This document shows positions 22,724 to 61,455 of a stretch of DNA of 64,000 nt, one piece after another. This stretch comes from Candidatus Omnitrophota bacterium. GTDB taxonomy: Bacteria > Omnitrophota > Omnitrophia > Omnitrophales > Aquincolibacteriaceae. Every line of letters begins with the position of its first letter. The stretch's first letter is position 1. The notes below the pieces were generated by a model, which worked only from the letters and a program-made list of their open reading frames with translations, was not told the DNA's origin and did no database searches. The position numbers were made by a program, and so were the translations under genes. The stretch lies in assembly GCA_022709525.1 (NCBI GenBank), contig JAKLIQ010000002.1, positions 128,984 through 192,983 on the forward strand. Reading direction: 5' to 3'.

Positions 22724-22842
22724 GAATCTTTTTTGATGCCAACCTCCGTCCCCGGTTTATCCTTTTTCCTTCCGATTTCATTTGATATCTGCTATCTTAC
22801 CCACCATCCTGGCTTTTGTTTTCATATCATTAATGGCTGCCA

Positions 22843-22889
22843 GGATGACCCCAATTTCAACTTCATTAAAATTGAAAGGTATTGGGACC
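22843..22889 (+). promoter_or_regulatory. Copy C of a conserved ~48-nt element ending exactly at the fabL-like ATG
   Basis: Read as GGATGACCCCAATTTCAACTTCATTAAAATTGAAAGGTATTGGGACC, followed directly by ATG. See findings for the three-copy comparison. Confidence 0.6.
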
Positions 22890-23648
22890 ATGACGAATCC
22901 GCTGAAAGGCAAAGTCGCTCTCATTACAGGGGCTTCCCGGGGCATCGGACGAGCCATCGCCCACCGCTTGGCCGAAGACGGTGTTCATATTGCGGTCAAT
23001 TATCTTCAGAATGAAGCGGCCGCGAAAAAGACCGTTGAAGAGCTCCAGGCCAAGGGCGTCAAAGCCGAGGCCTTCCAGGCGAATGTCGGTGATCTCGATA
23101 CTCACAATCCCCTGCTTGAAAATGTCCTCAAAACCTTCGGAACGCTGGATATCCTGATCCACAACGCGGCGCTCGGCGCTTTCAAGCCTGTTCATCGCCT
23201 TAAGATGAACCAGTGGGATCTTTCCATGGATATCAACGCTAAAGCGTTCCTGGCGCTTACTCAAAAAGCGCTTCCGATCATGGAAGCGAAAAAGGAAGGC
23301 ATCATCATCGCTCTCTCAAGTCTGGGCGCGCACCATTTTATCCCCAACTACGGTGCTATCGGGATCTCCAAAGCCGCGATCGAAACCACGGTCCGCTATC
23401 TCGGCGTGGAATTAATGCCGAAGGGCATCAGGGTGAACGCGGTTTCAGGCGGGCTCGTCGATACGGATGCGTTGAAATCATTCCCGTTTTTTGACGCTTT
23501 TAAGGAAGAGGTTTTAAAGCGGACTCCCGCCGGAAGGATCGGAAAACCCGAGGATATGGCCCGCGTGGTCGCGTTCCTTTGCTCCCCGGAATCGTCCTGG
23601 ATCGTCGGCCAAACCCTCATCGCCGACGGCGGACTTTCCCTCATCTAA
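22890..23648 (+). CDS. fabL: FabL/FabI-type enoyl-ACP reductase (SDR with Y-x6-K)
   Basis: The nucleotide-binding motif GASRGIGRA is present. IPNYGAIGISKAAIETTVRYLG resembles FabI [22 protein letters not shown]. The start was chosen at the ATG that has the conserved upstream element. Confidence 0.75.
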   Translation: MTNPLKGKVALITGASRGIGRAIAHRLAEDGVHIAVNYLQNEAAAKKTVEELQAKGVKAEAFQANVGDLDTHNPLLENVLKTFGTLDILIHNAALGAFKPVHRLKMNQWDLSMDINAKAFLALTQKALPIMEAKKEGIIIALSSLGAHHFIPNYGAIGISKAAIETTVRYLGVELMPKGIRVNAVSGGLVDTDALKSFPFFDAFKEEVLKRTPAGRIGKPEDMARVVAFLCSPESSWIVGQTLIADGGLSLI

Positions 23649-29757: not shown

Positions 29758-29921
29758 GGAACACCTCCTACGATACTGCTTGCCGTCCACATTCAGGTGT
29801 AAACCAAACGAAAACGCCCAACTTCCGACATCTCTAACGACGGCATTATCCTATCCTGACTTTTGTTTTTTTTCAACAGAAGGTAGTCAAGACGGTCATC
29901 AGCCGTTCCATGCTTGACCTT

Positions 29922-40900: not shown

Positions 40901-41436
40901 TCCCTGAAAAGCTCTTCCGCGGCGATGATCGCGATCTTGGCCTGAAGGAGGTCTTGGCAGGTTTCGATGATGATGCCGTCCACGCCGCCGGCCATGAGGC
41001 CCCTGCATTGTTCTTTGTAGGCGTTTTTCAGCTCATCGAAACCGATGTGGCCAAGTGAGGGAAGTTTTGTTCCGGGACCGACGGAGCCCAGCACGAAACG
41101 GGGGTGATCGGGCGTGGCATATTTTTGCGCAGCTTCCCGGGCGAGCTTGGCAGCCGCTTCATTGATCTCAAGCACGCGATCTTCCAACCCGTATTCGGCA
41201 AGAACGATCCGGTTCGCCCCGAAAGTATCGGTTTCGACAGCGTCGCATCCGACCGCGAGAAAACTTTCGTGGACGCTCCTGACGGCATCGGGCTTGGTAA
41301 TGACCAGATATTCATTGCAGCCGTCCTTACCTCCGAAATCCTGGGGCGTAAGGTTAAGCTTTTGGAGATTGGTGCCGAGCGCCCCGTCAAGAACAAGGAC
41401 CTTCTCATGGAGTCGTTTTAAAAATGGGTGTGCCAT
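37981..41436 (-). CDS. metH: Cobalamin-dependent methionine synthase MetH (Hcy-binding, pterin-binding, B12-binding and activation domains)
   Basis: The B12-binding motif DVHDIGKN is present. Start set at the ATG at 41436 (MAHPFLKRL...); the ORF track's TTG at 41454 lies inside the conserved upstream element. Confidence 0.9.
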   Translation of the reverse strand: MAHPFLKRLHEKVLVLDGALGTNLQKLNLTPQDFGGKDGCNEYLVITKPDAVRSVHESFLAVGCDAVETDTFGANRIVLAEYGLEDRVLEINEAAAKLAREAAQKYATPDHPRFVLGSVGPGTKLPSLGHIGFDELKNAYKEQCRGLMAGGVDGIIIETCQDLLQAKIAIIAAEELFRETGKKLPLIAQVTFESSGTMLLGTDVTSVIATLEMFPVNVIGINCATGPSEMSELVRFFCENSSKNISVLPNAGLPENIGGVAHYKLPPEEFASHIERFVREFGVSIVGGCCGTTPEHLKAVVEKIGSCAPKQRTPKHEPACASLYGIAAYSQKPPPLLVGEQTNANGSKKFKQILEREDYDAMTGVAREAVKEGAHLVDLCVAYVGRDEKKDMIEAVSRFNQHVTVPVMIDSTEPAVIEEALKRIAGKPIINSINLEDGGERLRKICPMAKRYGAGLVVLTIDEKGMAKTRDEKLRIAKRIHQIVTQQYGIRSEDLFFDLLTFTVGSGSEEFRNAAPETIEAIRRLKRDLPGVHTILGVSNISFGLAPRARQILNSVFLDECVKAGLDAAIVHAKKIVPLFKIEPEDLEAARRLLHNKWVDGKDPLQEFIAHFEKKQGIPQGQGGGTVQGAIEEVLKRHIIEGSAEGLEAHLDEALQKYKPLEIINRFLLDGMKQVGEFFGAGKMQLPFVLQSAEVMKKAVAYLERFMEKKEGQERGRIVLATVKGDVHDIGKNLVDIILTNNGYKVFNIGIKQPVDAIVKAALENRADAIGLSGLLVKSTLIMKEDLEEMARRGVKLPVICGGAALTERYVEGDLAKAYQGPVHYGRDAFSGLKIMEGIKKEIGPKTASPVLEEIPTPRNPRRSSSEKPSSGTAKRSSGPLFHVHRDNPIPKVPFYGYRIIKNIRLQDLFGWINKTALFRAQWQFKQGERTPREFELFLQENVEPIFEQFKAKTIREKLLEPRVIYGFFHCYSENDELVILDGSGTNELTRFKFPRQTREPYQCIADFFRPKGGEPDVVAFQAVTMGRRASETEQKLFRANKYTEYLYLHGFSVEATEALAEYTHLMIRRDMGISHQDKKTKEEIFRQKYQGSRYSFGYPACPHLEDQKKLFEVLPAQKIGITLSETFQMVPEQSTSAIIAHHPQAKYFGL

Positions 41437-41484
41437 AGTCCCAATACCTTTCAATTTTTACGAAGTAGAAATTGGGGCGATCCC
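41437..41484 (-). promoter_or_regulatory. Copy B of the conserved ~48-nt element ending exactly at the metH ATG
   Basis: The minus strand reads GGGATCGCCCCAATTTCTACTTCGTAAAAATTGAAAGGTATTGGGACT, followed directly by ATG. Confidence 0.6.
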
Positions 41485-41673
41485 AACCACCCTCTATGTA
41501 AAGAAATTCAGGTTGGGATAGAAAAAATATTCTATCACGGGAAATGAAAAACAGGAAAGAAGGAAGAATTCCCGTTTTCGGAACGGGAAAATCAAGCGCC
41601 CTGATGAATCTGTTATTTGCTAAATGGATCATCAGGACTGCATTGATTTCCCGATTCTTTTCTCTATGGAAAA

Positions 41674-43116
41674 TCAAGCGGGGTGAAAGAAGGCGTAAAT
41701 GCGGGCGGCCGTCCCTCGTTCGATCCCCGGAACGGCGCAAAGCTCGTCGATGCCGGCCTTTCGGATCTCATCGATCGAATTAAAATGACGCAGCAGGATC
41801 TTTTTCCGCCTCTCCCCGATCCCGGGGATATCGTCAAGCATCGAACGCTCCAACGACCTTGATTTGAGCTTTCGGTGGTAAGTGATCGCGAAGCGGTGCG
41901 CTTCATCACGGATCTTTTTCAGGAGATAGAGCGCCGGGGAATCCGAGGGGATCACGAGCGGATCCTTCCATTTCAAAGCATGGACCCATTCGAATTGCTT
42001 GGCGATGGCGATCAGCTCCATGGACTCCATCCCTTCCCGCACAAGGGCCTTGGCGGCGGTATTCAAATGCCCCCTGCCTCCGTCGATCATGATCAGATCG
42101 GGCGCAAAATCCTCCCGGCCCTCTTTGATGGCACGCAGCATGCGCGTCAGCGCCTCGGCGATCATGGCATAATCATTGATCCCCGAGACGCCTTTGATCT
42201 TGTAGCGACGGTACCCGAATTTATCGGGAAGTTCGCGATAAAAACTCACTTTGGACGCCACGGCTTCCTCGCCCTGGACATTGGAAACGTCAAAACATAC
42301 GATCCTCTCGGGTATTCTTGAGAGCTTAAGGCGCTGTTTGAGCTCCAAAGTCGCCGAAAGCGATATGCCCTGCCCGGGATTCTTGGGAAGAAACCTTTTT
42401 CTCTTGAGTTTGGATAGAGCTTCCAACTGTTCTTTGAAGAATTGCGCGTCCTCAAAACGTAATTCCCGGCTGGCCTTTTCCATGCGTTCTTCAAGGTATT
42501 CCGCAAAACTTTTTTTGCGGGCGCCGAGAAAGCGTTTGATCTCGCGGATCAGCCGGTCGTATTCGGGTTTGACCTCCGGTTGGATGCAGGGAGCTATGCA
42601 TTGCTTCAAGTGATAATAAAGACAGGCCGTTTTGGGAAGCGTCTGGCATTTTCTTATCGGAAAAAGCCCGTGGAGGAGATCCGCGGCCTGGCGCAACAGC
42701 TTTGCGTCCGTGTAAGGCCCGTAATAATCGGCTTTGCGGTCTGTTTTCTGCCTTGTCACGCAAAGGCGGGGAAATTTTTCACGGGTGATCTTAAGGAGCG
42801 GAAAACTTTTATCATCTTTGAGCTCTTGATTGTACTTCGGCTGGCATTTGCGCACGAGGTGGGCTTCCAAAAGCAGGGCGTCCATCTCGGTCGGGGTGTC
42901 GATGTGGTCGATTGCGCGCACCTGACGCATGAGAACGGCGACCTTGGGGATCGGCGCTGGGATTTTGAAATAGCTACGGACTCTTTTGCGAAGCGATTTG
43001 GCTTTGCCGATATAGAGGATCTTCCCGCCGGCATCACGCATAAGATAAACGCCGGGCGTCGAAGGAAGGGCTCCGGCGCTCTGTCGAAGGTTTTTAAAAG
43101 GATCGACGGTTTTCAT
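41674..43116 (-). CDS. uvrC: Excinuclease ABC subunit C (GIY-YIG N-terminus, C-terminal HhH)
   Basis: The GIY-YIG region reads PGVYLMRDAGGKILYIGKAKSLRKRVRSYF. The C-terminal HhH reads IPGIGERRKKIL. Confidence 0.8.
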   Translation of the reverse strand: MKTVDPFKNLRQSAGALPSTPGVYLMRDAGGKILYIGKAKSLRKRVRSYFKIPAPIPKVAVLMRQVRAIDHIDTPTEMDALLLEAHLVRKCQPKYNQELKDDKSFPLLKITREKFPRLCVTRQKTDRKADYYGPYTDAKLLRQAADLLHGLFPIRKCQTLPKTACLYYHLKQCIAPCIQPEVKPEYDRLIREIKRFLGARKKSFAEYLEERMEKASRELRFEDAQFFKEQLEALSKLKRKRFLPKNPGQGISLSATLELKQRLKLSRIPERIVCFDVSNVQGEEAVASKVSFYRELPDKFGYRRYKIKGVSGINDYAMIAEALTRMLRAIKEGREDFAPDLIMIDGGRGHLNTAAKALVREGMESMELIAIAKQFEWVHALKWKDPLVIPSDSPALYLLKKIRDEAHRFAITYHRKLKSRSLERSMLDDIPGIGERRKKILLRHFNSIDEIRKAGIDELCAVPGIERGTAARIYAFFHPA

Positions 43117-61334: not shown

Positions 61335-61384
61335 TTAGTCCCAATTCCTATCAATTTCAGAGAATCTGAAATTGGGGCAATCCT
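61335..61384 (-). promoter_or_regulatory. Copy A of the conserved ~48-nt element in the 5' leader of the bactofilin-HTH gene
   Basis: The minus strand reads AAGGATTGCCCCAATTTCAGATTCTCTGAAATTGATAGGAATTGGGACTAAG. Confidence 0.6.
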
Positions 61385-61426
61385 TGTCAACCATTCGAGA
61401 AAAAAATACCAGACAAGGATGATTCA

Positions 61427-61455
61427 TTATCTTCATTTTATCGGACCTTGTCAAT
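61427..61455 (-). promoter_or_regulatory. Sigma70-type promoter: TTGACA, 17-nt spacer, GATAAT, upstream of element copy A
   Basis: The minus strand reads TTGACAaggtccgataaaatgaaGATAAT. Confidence 0.45.

What the first reader, a model, noticed from the sequence alone, without database searches (positions are those of the whole stretch)
22843..22892. Conserved ~48-nt element at translation starts, copy C (fabL-like gene)
Three loci share a near-identical element in the same orientation relative to the downstream gene. Copy C reads GGATgaCCCCAATTTCaacttcattaAAATTGAAAGGTATTGGGACcATG. Copy B, at the metH start, reads GGATcgCCCCAATTTCtacttcgtaaAAATTGAAAGGTATTGGGACtATG. Copy A, 38 nt before the bactofilin-HTH start, reads GGATtgCCCCAATTTCagattctctgAAATTGAtAGGaATTGGGACtAaG. 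The conserved arms CAATTTC/GAAATTG flank a variable loop whose stem-top bases covary (CAGA/TCTG in A, CTAC/GTAa in B). The 5' CCCCAAU can alternatively pair with the 3' AUUGGG, which would sequester the purine-rich GAAAGG SD-like segment. Two of the three copies end exactly at the AUG. This looks like a previously unrecognised cis-regulatory RNA or repeat module controlling translation initiation of unrelated genes.
Basis: seen in the sequence. Interest (0 to 1): 0.85.

Follow-up and report, generated by a model that had tools for sequence, protein, structure and literature searches.

The report
Mobile hairpin repeat supplying gene leaders
The 48-base motif is the right-hand part of an 84-base mobile hairpin repeat that litters Omnitrophota genomes, and at the fabL-like and metH genes it landed inside the start codon of a leaderless gene and now most likely serves as that gene's whole 5' leader and ribosome-binding site.

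Summary
In detail: three copies are in the window and none is expected by chance. The motif is only part of a longer unit of about 84-90 nt. The unit is hairpin SL1 with a T-rich loop, a 3-nt 'guide', hairpin SL2, then A and a 3-nt end.

A pattern scan found it in at least 118 stretches from 21 genome assemblies. Every named one is Candidatus Omnitrophota. Density is about 50 copies per Mb. It has no Rfam match.

It is mobile. Orthologous sites are filled in some species and empty in others, with exact boundaries.

The 3 nt before the element equal its last 3 nt in 81 of 124 copies, and both covary with the internal guide. This resembles IS200/IS605 guide/cleavage-site logic, but no transposase was found.

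Copy C, and copy B at metH, sit between the A and the TG of the start codon of a gene that is leaderless in relatives (a -10 box, 7-9 nt, then ATG). Such start-codon copies are enriched and carry GAAAGG.

Other copies build a TTGAAA-17-TAnAAT promoter at their 3' junction.

It is not a dedicated regulatory RNA. It is a MITE-like element, some copies of which have been co-opted as leaders or promoters.

The parts
22807..22890 (+). Copy C, full element (the finding). It contains SL1, guide, SL2, A and the 3-nt end. Its last base is the A of the fabL-like ATG.
   Evidence: CM hit of 83 bits spanning 22799-22892. Boundaries come from the 129-copy alignment and from empty orthologous sites.
22793..22798 (+). 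-10-like hexamer TATCTT of the native fabL promoter. It lies 7 nt before the A at 22806, which is the inferred transcription start.
   Evidence: The same CTATCTTA + 6-7 nt + ATG is found in the empty orthologous sites L119 and L120. It was also found by the TAnnnT scan.
22804..22806 (+). Target trinucleotide C_L (CCA) just 5' of the element. It is identical to the element's last 3 nt.
   Evidence: C_L equals C_R in 81 of 124 copies, against a shuffle mean of 29.5.
22807..22845 (+). SL1: stem TCCTGGC/GCCAGGA with a T-rich loop of about 25 nt.
   Evidence: 7 of 8 stem pairs show compensatory changes and 94% of cells are paired. It is also present in the DNA and RNA folds.
22846..22848 (+). Internal 'guide' trinucleotide. 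It is TGA here; the family form is xyG.
   Evidence: x pairs with the last base of the element (UA 71, CG 48) and with the last base of the 5' flank (AU 62, GC 51).
22849..22886 (+). SL2: CCC/GGG foot, inner hairpin CAATTTC...AAAATTG with a C.A mismatch, and the bulge GAAAGGTATT.
22874..22879 (+). GAAAGG, a Shine-Dalgarno-like segment 10 nt before the ATG.
   Evidence: Enriched in start-codon copies: 10 of 16 against 3 of 116. Its function is inferred.
22888..22890 (+). Terminal trinucleotide C_R (CCA). Its A is the first base of the start codon at 22890-22892.
41436..41518 (-). Copy B, full element. Its last base is the A of the metH ATG (41436-41434).
   Evidence: CM hit of 88.6 bits. Empty metH sites in L125 and L127 show TGnTAnAAT + 9 nt + ATG.
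41529..41537 (-). Extended -10 TGATAGAAT of the native metH promoter, 9 nt before the A at 41519.
61336..61419 (-). Copy A, full element with a perfect 10-bp SL2. It lies 38 nt before the bactofilin-HTH ATG, which keeps its own AAGGAG.
   Evidence: CM hit of 90 bits; sequence.
61426..61454 (-). Promoter-like TTGACA-17-GATAAT that ends 6 nt before copy A. Transcription would therefore start at about the element's first base.
   Evidence: This is a consensus match only.
29846..29907 (+). Derivative with SL1, guide and end but no SL2 (CTA|TCCTGACT...AGTCAAGACGG-7nt-CCG).
   Evidence: CM hit of 26 bits, E=6e-4; sequence.
41591..41691 (+). Divergent family member with a different SL2 (CATTGATTTCC...GGAAAATCAAG). 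It is head-to-head with copy B in the uvrC-metH spacer.
   Evidence: CM hit of 21.7 bits, E=0.006; sequence. This assignment is weak.

Best explanation
**What it is**

The motif is part of a non-autonomous mobile DNA element of about 84-90 nt, similar in kind to a MITE or REP. The element is specific to Candidatus Omnitrophota and present at roughly 50 copies per Mb.

Its anatomy runs 5' to 3':
- SL1, an 8-9 bp stem of freely covarying sequence with a conserved T-rich loop;
- a trinucleotide 'guide', xyG;
- SL2, made of a CCC/GGG foot, an inner hairpin of about 10 bp, and a conserved 9-10 nt bulge GAWAGGTATT;
- A;
- a terminal trinucleotide, Cpq.

**What is shown**
- The element is absent from exactly the same sites in related species.
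- The three bases before it usually equal its own last three bases.
- Both of those trinucleotides covary with the guide. The outer positions are Watson-Crick; the middle position is tolerant.

**What is inferred about mobilisation**
- The element moves as folded single-stranded DNA.
- It inserts 3' of a C-N-q site that pairs with its guide, in the way IS200/IS605 ends use guide and cleavage sequences.
- An excised circle would fold into a continuous dumbbell.
- The enzyme is unknown.

**What happened at copy C (fabL-like) and copy B (metH)**
- Shown: the element lies between the A and the TG of the start codon.
- Shown: in relatives that gene has a -10 box 7-9 nt before the ATG and no Shine-Dalgarno.
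- Inferred: the gene is leaderless in relatives. Transcription still starts at that A, so the whole element has become an 84-nt 5' leader.
- Inferred: translation now depends on the element's GAAAGG, which lies 10 nt before the restored ATG.
- Shown: start-codon copies form a subfamily with GAAAGG and a weakened SL2.

**Other copies**

Some copies end in TA fused to nAAT in the flank. With the element's own TTGAAA lying 17 nt upstream, this forms a sigma-70-type promoter.
For: **Anatomy and abundance**
- The conservation profile has a sharp 3' edge at +4 and a 5' edge at about -45.
- The structure rests on a 129-copy alignment.
- The covariance model finds 146 hits in 690 kb of loci, and 3 full copies plus 2 derivatives in the 64-kb window.
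- All 118 stretches come from 21 assemblies, and every named one is Omnitrophota.

**Structure**
- SL1 has 7 of 8 pairs compensatory; the top of SL2 has 3 pairs compensatory.
- 92% of cells are paired, against 25-51% when the partner columns are slid.

**Mobility**
- Extra copies sit at precise sites inside a conserved non-coding repeat in some species but not others.
- The fabL site is filled in the window and in L005 but empty in L119-L124. That includes L120, which comes from a genome that carries the element elsewhere.
- The metH site is empty in L125 and L127.

**Target and guide**
- C_L equals C_R in 81 of 124 copies, against a shuffle mean of 29.5 and maximum of 43. Among copies that do not end in CTA the figure is 37 of 61.
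- The x-q pair is UA 71 / CG 48, and the flank-x pair is AU 62 / GC 51.
- Guide CAG goes with C_L = CAG, but with C_R = CTG in 6 copies and CAG in 5. This argues that the 3' trinucleotide belongs to the element and is not a plain duplication.

**Leaderless-to-leadered conversion**
- 16 of 79 copies have ATG across the junction, against 6% expected (p=1.6e-5). At least 12 of the 16 open reading frames of 100 or more codons, or frames running off the contig end.
- 9 of 14 start-codon copies have TAnnnT 6-11 nt before the element's 5' end, against 7 of 115 other copies (p=8.5e-7).
- GAAAGG is present in 10 of 16 start-codon copies against 3 of 116 others (p=6e-9).
- The SL2 C.A mismatch is present in 11 of 16 against 19 of 113 (p=4e-5).

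**Promoter class**
- TAnAAT spans the junction in 11 of 68 copies, against a background of 1.85% (p=5e-8).
- TTGAAA-17-TACAAT was called by the promoter scan in L032.

**Comparison with IS608**
- The IS608 guide/cleavage-site mechanism used for comparison is taken from PMC3201880.
Against: - **No enzyme found.** No transposase or other enriched protein lies near the copies. No Y1/RAYT homologue was found in the 884 kb held, but the queries were recalled from memory and the sample is small.
- **No strand bias.** Orientation shows no bias against local GC skew (59 against 53). An IS608-like lagging-strand preference would predict one, although 8-kb skew is noisy.
- **Geometry differs from IS608.** There is one shared guide lying between two hairpins. 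The left cleavage site abuts SL1 rather than lying 19 nt away from it.
- **The duplication alternative is open.** Identity of C_L and C_R could equally be a 3-bp target-site duplication made by a cut-and-paste enzyme.
- **Counts are not fully independent.** Several copies are orthologous, for example window C and L005, L031 and L067, and L101 and L103. Independent events are therefore fewer than the raw counts.
- **No expression data.** The transcription starts, the role of GAAAGG and the organism's anti-SD sequence are all inferred. No 16S rRNA gene is in the window.
- **A second possible start.** In copy C an internal ATGACC-16-TAAAAT match could instead start a short-leader transcript.
Confidence: 0.75

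Rival explanations
1. It is a dedicated cis-regulatory RNA leader. In this view a structured 5'-UTR element evolved to control translation initiation by switching between the CAAUUUC/GAAAUUG hairpin and a CCCAAU/AUUGGG pairing that occludes the SD-like GAAAGG.
For: - Two of the three window copies end at an AUG.
- RNAfold picks the CCCAAU/AUUGGG pairing for copies B and C. Their z-scores are weak, at -2.2 and -0.85.
- GAAAGG and the weakened SL2 are specific to start-codon copies.
Against: - About 88% of copies are not at start codons.
- About a third of copies in co-directional contexts are antisense.
- Copies occur in tandem, inside another repeat, and at the ends of convergent genes.
- There is no excess of G.U wobble.
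- It matches no Rfam family.
- Orthologous sites are empty in relatives.
- The alternative pairing cannot be tested by covariation, because those bases were fixed by the search pattern.
Confidence: 0.07
2. It is a classical cut-and-paste MITE moved by a DDE transposase that makes a 3-bp target-site duplication. In this view the terminal trinucleotide is a duplicated target and not part of the element. The match to the internal trinucleotide reflects target preference or chance.
For: - The 3 nt on either side are identical in 81 of 124 copies.
- The ends proper read TCC...GGA, a 3-4 nt inverted repeat.
- Orientation shows no replication-strand bias.
Against: - There are no terminal inverted repeats of useful length.
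- A plain duplication does not predict the strong covariation of both flanking trinucleotides with an internal trinucleotide next to the hairpin feet.
- Left and right trinucleotides differ systematically for guide CAG, with CAG on the left and CTG on the right in 6 copies.
- The invariant A before the 3' trinucleotide contrasts with a variable base before the 5' one.
Confidence: 0.15
3. It is a host-domesticated structural or protein-binding repeat. In this view it works like REP sequences that bind IHF or gyrase or stabilise mRNA. It is no longer mobile and is kept because a conserved host protein recognises the GAWAGGTATT bulge and the CCCC/GGGAC foot.
For: - Unpaired segments that were not fixed by the search pattern are conserved across species whose orthologous proteins are only 65-90% identical. 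These are GGA..G, AC, the G in the bulge and the T-rich loop.
- Copies are retained at orthologous positions.
- No transposase was found.
Against: - Presence/absence differs between closely related species, and nested or tandem insertions occur. This shows at least recent mobility.
- The conserved segments could equally be the recognition site of a transposase.
- This view is not mutually exclusive with the best explanation.
Confidence: 0.2

Closest known systems
IS200/IS605-family ends and their MITE derivatives (PATEs, Nezha); IS608 mechanism as described in PMC3201880
   Same: - Hairpins at both ends and no long terminal inverted repeats.
- Insertion 3' of a very short target.
- The target and the element's own 3' end are each complementary to a short internal 'guide' next to a hairpin foot, with one non-canonical position tolerated.
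- Precise empty sites.
   Different: - There is one shared 3-nt guide lying between the two hairpins. IS608 has two 4-nt guides, each 5' of its own hairpin.
- The left cleavage site abuts SL1, against 19 nt away in IS608. The right site is 1 nt from SL2, against 10 nt.
- The left and right sites are the same trinucleotide.
- No TnpA was found.
- No strand bias was seen against local GC skew.
REP/REPIN elements with RAYT (TnpA-REP) transposases
   Same: - High-copy intergenic hairpin repeats.
- A short tag conserved next to the hairpin.
- Likely mobilisation in trans by a single-copy enzyme.
- Conserved over long periods.
   Different: - The element is AT-rich and has two hairpins across an 84-nt unit.
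- It has no GTAG or CGTC tag at the hairpin foot.
- Clustered copies are head-to-tail rather than inverted pairs.
- It is found at promoters and start codons rather than mainly at 3' ends.
Correia elements (CREE/NEMIS) of Neisseria and other promoter-carrying MITEs; 'putative mobile promoters' (PMC3488235)
   Same: - Short dispersed elements whose ends complete promoter hexamers.
- They alter expression of unrelated neighbouring genes.
   Different: - Correia elements have 26-bp terminal inverted repeats and a TA duplication.
- No known case was found in the searchable literature of an element that splits the start codon of leaderless genes and supplies the ribosome-binding site.

Membership tests
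IS200/IS605-type single-strand elements / PATE-type MITEs | Subterminal hairpins at both ends, with no long terminal inverted repeats | tested here: met
   SL1 and SL2 are supported by compensatory changes. Only TCC...GGA is shared between the two ends.
IS200/IS605-type single-strand elements / PATE-type MITEs | The target and the 3' end are recognised by pairing with an internal guide next to the hairpin foot | tested here: met
   Three-way covariation of C_L, xyG and C_R. This is sequence evidence only. The geometry also differs from IS608: one shared guide, and cleavage sites that abut the hairpins.
IS200/IS605-type single-strand elements / PATE-type MITEs | Insertion without target-site duplication | tested here: inconclusive
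   C_L equals C_R in 81 of 124 copies, which looks like a 3-bp duplication. The systematic CAG/CTG differences and the invariant A before C_R argue that the 3' copy belongs to the element.
IS200/IS605-type single-strand elements / PATE-type MITEs | A Y1 HUH transposase (TnpA) encoded in the genome, with matching ends | tested here: inconclusive
   tblastn with three Y1/RAYT sequences recalled from memory gave no hit below E=0.4 in 884 kb. No protein family is enriched near copies. Whole genomes could not be searched.
IS200/IS605-type single-strand elements / PATE-type MITEs | Orientation bias relative to the replication fork | tested here: inconclusive
   59 against 53 relative to local 8-kb GC skew. 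41 against 22 relative to co-directional genes using crude gene calls. Replication origins are unknown for these MAG contigs.
REP/REPIN-RAYT | A 20-40 nt G+C-rich palindrome with a conserved GTAG or CGTC tag at its foot | tested here: not met
   The consensus shows an 84-nt, two-hairpin, AT-rich unit, with GGAxyG before the foot.
REP/REPIN-RAYT | Copies paired in inverted orientation (REPIN/BIME) | tested here: not met
   Clustered copies are head-to-tail, and only about 5% of copies are clustered.
TIR-type MITE (for example Correia) | Terminal inverted repeats of about 10 bp or more, plus a fixed duplication | tested here: not met
   No terminal inverted repeat beyond 3-4 nt.
Cis-regulatory leader RNA or riboswitch | Consistently upstream of, and co-oriented with, the regulated genes; RNA-type covariation | tested here: not met
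   About 12% of copies are at start codons. Antisense copies are common. G.T 29 against A.C 86. No Rfam match.
Integron attC site | R''/R' core sites RYYYAAC...GTTRRRY | tested here: not met
   These core sites are absent from the consensus.
Putative mobile promoters (a descriptive class, PMC3488235) | Near-identical upstream sequence in front of non-homologous genes | tested here: met

The most novel reading that the evidence does not exclude
The element could be a new kind of programmable single-strand transposon. In this reading one 3-nt guide, placed between two hairpins, selects both the target and the element's own end. The excised form would be a fully paired dumbbell circle of about 84 nt. 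The mobilising enzyme would be unrelated to known Y1 transposases. Specialised subfamilies would have evolved to colonise the +1 A|TG of leaderless genes by carrying their own ribosome-binding site. That would make it a mobile 'leader cassette' that rewires how translation starts across a phylum.
Probability: 0.15. Interest if true: 0.8.

Novelty: new variant of a known kind. Interest (0 to 1): 0.58.

Why it matters
- **A new high-copy repeat family.** It defines a family that is unannotated in Rfam and in the literature I could search. The family lives in an uncultivated phylum and will confuse gene callers. Several MetH orthologues are called 10-45 residues too long, plausibly through such inserts.
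- **A compact natural example of guide-directed target choice.** If confirmed, this would interest people who engineer IS200/IS605-type systems.
- **A concrete case of gene-expression rewiring.** It shows, with filled and empty orthologous sites, how a mobile element can convert a leaderless gene into a leadered, SD-dependent one. This bears on the open question of how bacteria move between leaderless and SD-led initiation.
- **A pointer on Omnitrophota biology.** It also indicates that leaderless genes may be common in Omnitrophota.

Tried and rejected
- **Rfam.** At gathering thresholds on the window and on 15 loci, and at permissive E-values on copy A and on the host repeat, only tRNAs and noise were found.
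- **Viral contigs.** There were 0 matches.
- **Literature.** Text searches for the motif and for Omnitrophota repeats found nothing relevant.
- **Neighbouring proteins.** All-vs-all clustering of ORFs in 118 loci found only response regulators, kinases and syntenic housekeeping genes.
- **Y1/RAYT transposases.** tblastn found nothing.
- **Sigma-70 promoter inside SL1, or a terminator role.** The scans did not call either.
- **General targeting of transcription starts.** This was rejected. Copies not at an ATG show no excess of -10 boxes upstream: 10 observed against 11.4 expected.
- **Replication-strand bias by GC skew.** None was seen.
- **CRISPR array, integron attC and TIR-MITE readings.** All were rejected from the consensus.
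- **Long ORFs that appear to contain the element** (for example L032 655-2487). These proved to be read-through or shadow artefacts between divergent real genes.
- **Removing elements from the host repeat by regular expression.** My first attempt failed and I did not pursue it.
Full report
**1. Observation**

The sequence at 22843-22892 is as reported. A 40-nt pattern finds three copies in the window: 22849-22888 (+), 41438-41477 (-) and 61338-61377 (-). None was found in 100 shuffles. Pfam confirms the downstream genes:
- an SDR/enoyl-ACP-reductase-like protein at 22890-23648;
- MetH at 41436-37981 on the minus strand;
- a bactofilin-HTH protein at 61297-60764 on the minus strand.

The window's SDR is 100% identical to a protein from a Candidatus Omnitrophota MAG.

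**2. The motif is part of a longer, abundant unit**

I scanned one genome per species with CCCCAATTTC-N8-12-AAATTGA-N5-ATTGGG. These come from 21 assemblies. Every named one is Omnitrophota or Omnitrophica, and the rest are unnamed 'uncultured bacterium' MAGs.

Profiles anchored on the 133 copies show conservation from about -45 to +4 around the core, with a sharp 3' edge. The 129-copy alignment gives this consensus:

nCTA | TCCTTGTC-(T-rich loop ...TTTC.T.AATGG)-GACAAGGA-TTG-CCCC-AATTTCAAC-TTC-GTTGAAATT-GATAGGTATT-GGG-A-CTA |

A caveat applies. The bases that were in my search pattern are invariant by construction. Other subfamilies replace the inner SL2 stem with AATC../..GATT, ATCCCGCC/GGCGGGAT or CATGATT/AATCATG.

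A covariance model built from the alignment gave these results:
- In the window it finds the three copies at 83-90 bits, an SL1-only derivative at 29846-29907, and a weak divergent variant at 41591-41691.
- In 690 kb of loci it finds 146 hits. That is about 33 beyond the seeded copies, or roughly 50 per Mb. This agrees with 3-5 copies in the 64-kb window.

There is no Rfam match and no match in viral contigs.

**3. Structure**

- SL1: 7 of 8 pairs show compensatory changes and 94% of cells are paired.
- SL2: the top three pairs covary.
- Sliding the partner columns drops pairing to 25-51%.
- Wobble pairs are rare. There are 29 G.T against 86 A.C and 2819 Watson-Crick cells. The constraint therefore does not carry the signature of an RNA structure, although this is weak evidence.

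**4. Mobility**

Ten loci carry the element inside a conserved non-coding repeat. Some species have additional copies at exact sites that are uninterrupted in others. For example, ccctccag|tcctcgc is the empty form and ccctccag[TCCTGAC...GGGACAG]tcctcgc is the filled form.

For the copy in the finding I fetched FabL orthologues. The sequences are:
- L119 (88% protein identity) reads ggCTATCTTAtcgcccATG, and L120 (82%) reads gATATCTTAtcgctcATG. Neither has the element.
- The window reads ctgCTATCTTAcccacca|element...GGGACCA|TG.
- L005 is filled at the same point.

L120 comes from a MAG that carries the element elsewhere, in L034 and L087. The difference is therefore one of site occupancy and not of lineage.

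MetH gives the same picture:
- L125 reads TGATAAAATacctggcttATG.
- L127 reads TGCTACAATacccgtcttATG.
- The window reads TGATAGAATattttttcta|element...GGGACTA|TG.

**5. Target logic**

The trinucleotide before the element (C_L) equals the element's last trinucleotide (C_R) in 81 of 124 copies. The shuffle mean is 29.5 and the maximum is 43. Among copies that do not end in CTA, the figure is 37 of 61.

Both trinucleotides covary with the internal trinucleotide xyG, which lies between SL1 and SL2:
- G pairs with C.
- x pairs with q. At the 3' end the counts are UA 71 and CG 48. At the 5' flank they are AU 62 and GC 51.
- The middle position is Watson-Crick when it is G or C, but A.A or T.T otherwise.

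The guide can therefore extend either SL1, by pairing with the flank, or SL2, by pairing with the element's own end. In an excised single-strand circle the guide would join the two hairpins into one continuous dumbbell. That last point is inference.

This logic is the same as the guide/cleavage-site recognition of IS608 (PMC3201880). The geometry differs.

For guide CAG the left site is CAG, while the right site is CTG in 6 copies and CAG in 5. An invariant A precedes the right site only. Both facts favour an element-borne 3' end over a simple 3-bp duplication, but they do not settle the question.

No enzyme was found:
- Neighbouring ORFs are ordinary genes.
- Y1/RAYT queries recalled from memory found nothing in 884 kb.

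Orientation shows no bias against local GC skew (59 against 53). It shows a modest bias toward the strand of co-directional genes (41 against 22, crude gene calls).

**6. What the start-codon copies are**

- 16 of the 79 copies that end in A have ATG straddling the boundary, against 6% expected (p=1.6e-5). At least 12 of the 16 open reading frames of 100 or more codons, or frames running off the contig end. These include FabL, MetH, an ECF-sigma-like protein and L28.
- In 9 of 14 of these copies, a TAnnnT hexamer lies 6-11 nt before the element's 5' end. Among other copies the figure is 7 of 115 (p=8.5e-7).
- All fetched empty orthologous sites (L119-L124 for fabL, L125 and L127 for metH) show a -10-like hexamer 6-9 nt before the ATG and no Shine-Dalgarno. 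I infer that these genes are leaderless.

Putting these together, the element inserted immediately after the +1 A. Its own terminal A restores the ATG. The native promoter should then transcribe the entire element as a new 84-nt leader.

Start-codon copies are a recognisable subfamily:
- GAAAGG replaces GATAGG or GATAAG in 10 of 16, against 3 of 116 others (p=6e-9).
- A G-to-A change breaks the seventh SL2 pair in 11 of 16, against 19 of 113 others (p=4e-5).
- Many share the SL1 stem TCCCAAC. This points to a lineage that survives at such sites because it brings a ribosome-binding site. The role of GAAAGG is inferred.

RNAfold predicts that copies B and C adopt CCCAAU/AUUGGG rather than the inner hairpin, which partly encloses GAAAGG. 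The z-scores are only -2.2 and -0.85. Whether this regulates anything is unknown.

In copy C the same G-to-A change creates TAAAAT, with a weak -35 match of 9 of 12. A short-leader transcript is therefore an unresolved alternative.

Copy A fits the same picture. A TTGACA-17-GATAAT match ends 6 nt before its first base, and the gene keeps its own AAGGAG downstream.

**7. A second co-opted class**

- Of 68 copies ending in TA, 11 are followed by nAAT, which forms TAnAAT. The background frequency is 1.85% (p=5e-8).
- Some of these are orthologous, so there are about 7 independent cases.
- In 6 of the 11, the element's own TTGAAA lies exactly 17 nt upstream.
- The promoter scan called TTGAAA-17-TACAAT in L032.
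- For every one of these copies with a called downstream gene, that gene is co-oriented.
- Five copies end where a convergent ORF's TAG stop is the reverse complement of CTA.

There is no general preference for transcription starts among the remaining copies. I therefore read these classes as survivors of selection acting on a low-specificity C-N-q target. I do not read them as targeted insertion.

**8. Verdict**

The finding is real and non-random. It is a mobile repeat, of a known general kind with an unusual architecture. It is not a dedicated regulatory RNA.

For the specific copy in the finding, the best-supported reading is this:
- It interrupted the start codon of a leaderless fabL-like gene.
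- It now provides that gene's 5' leader and its SD-like site.

The mobility, the boundaries, the covariation and the site contexts are shown. The single-strand mechanism, the enzyme, the transcription starts and the translational role are inferred.

Noticed in passing
L033 2597-2969; also L117 7410-7781, L081 4365-4820, L021 6246-6674, L026, L060, L115, L053, L073 and L054 (not in the window): A conserved, multi-copy, highly structured non-coding region of about 300 nt always carries one copy of the element at the same internal point, and sometimes carries extra copies. Two MAGs each hold at least 3 copies of it, next to different genes. It matches no Rfam family. RNAalifold on the right half gives -66.7 kcal/mol and a long-range helix GGCGGGAAGUGUGUU/AACACACUUCCCGCC. 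Only 3 pairs are compensatory, and this rests on 6 similar sequences.
   Followed up: partly
L119-L124 (fabL), L125 and L127 (metH), position about 1480-1500 or 580-600 in each: Orthologues without the element have a -10-like hexamer, often with TGn in front, 6-9 nt before the ATG and no Shine-Dalgarno. Leaderless genes may therefore be common in Omnitrophota.
   Followed up: partly
L126 about 475-600: A different MITE sits just inside the 5' end of metH. It has perfect 13-bp terminal inverted repeats (CCCGTTAGATCTC...GAGATCTAACGGG) and a 6-bp duplication, TGAGCC. The gene now appears to start at a GTG that is preceded by a GGAG supplied by that MITE. This is an independent parallel to the finding.
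   Followed up: no
L023, minus strand, about 95 nt before offset 1363 of the reverse complement: An SL2-like module (AAATTTCATTTAAATTATTGATAGTAATTTGGACTA) directly follows the 3' acceptor end of a tRNA (...ATTGCCCA). That tRNA end resembles the GGATTGCCCC junction of the element.
   Followed up: no
L009, minus strand, offsets about 1810-1965 of the reverse complement: A complete element of the AATC subfamily is followed by only the 3' half of a start-codon-type SL2 (CTTCGTAAAAATTGAAAGGTATTGGGACTA) and then an ATG. This is a truncated or nested arrangement.
   Followed up: no
window 41569-41589 (-): A terminator-like hairpin, TTCCCGTTCCGAAAACGGGAA followed by a T-rich tail, lies after uvrC. It sits between the divergent variant and copy B, and part of it is repeated at the 3' end of the variant (GGAAAATCAAGCG).
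   Followed up: no
MetH orthologues P0123, P0129, P0131, P0137, P0139 and others: Many called MetH proteins are 10-45 residues longer than the 1149-1151 residue form. In the two longer calls whose DNA I fetched (L126 and L127), the true start appears to lie further in, or to follow a different MITE, and the caller ran on upstream. Repeats or misplaced starts at the 5' end probably inflate N-termini in public annotations.
   Followed up: partly
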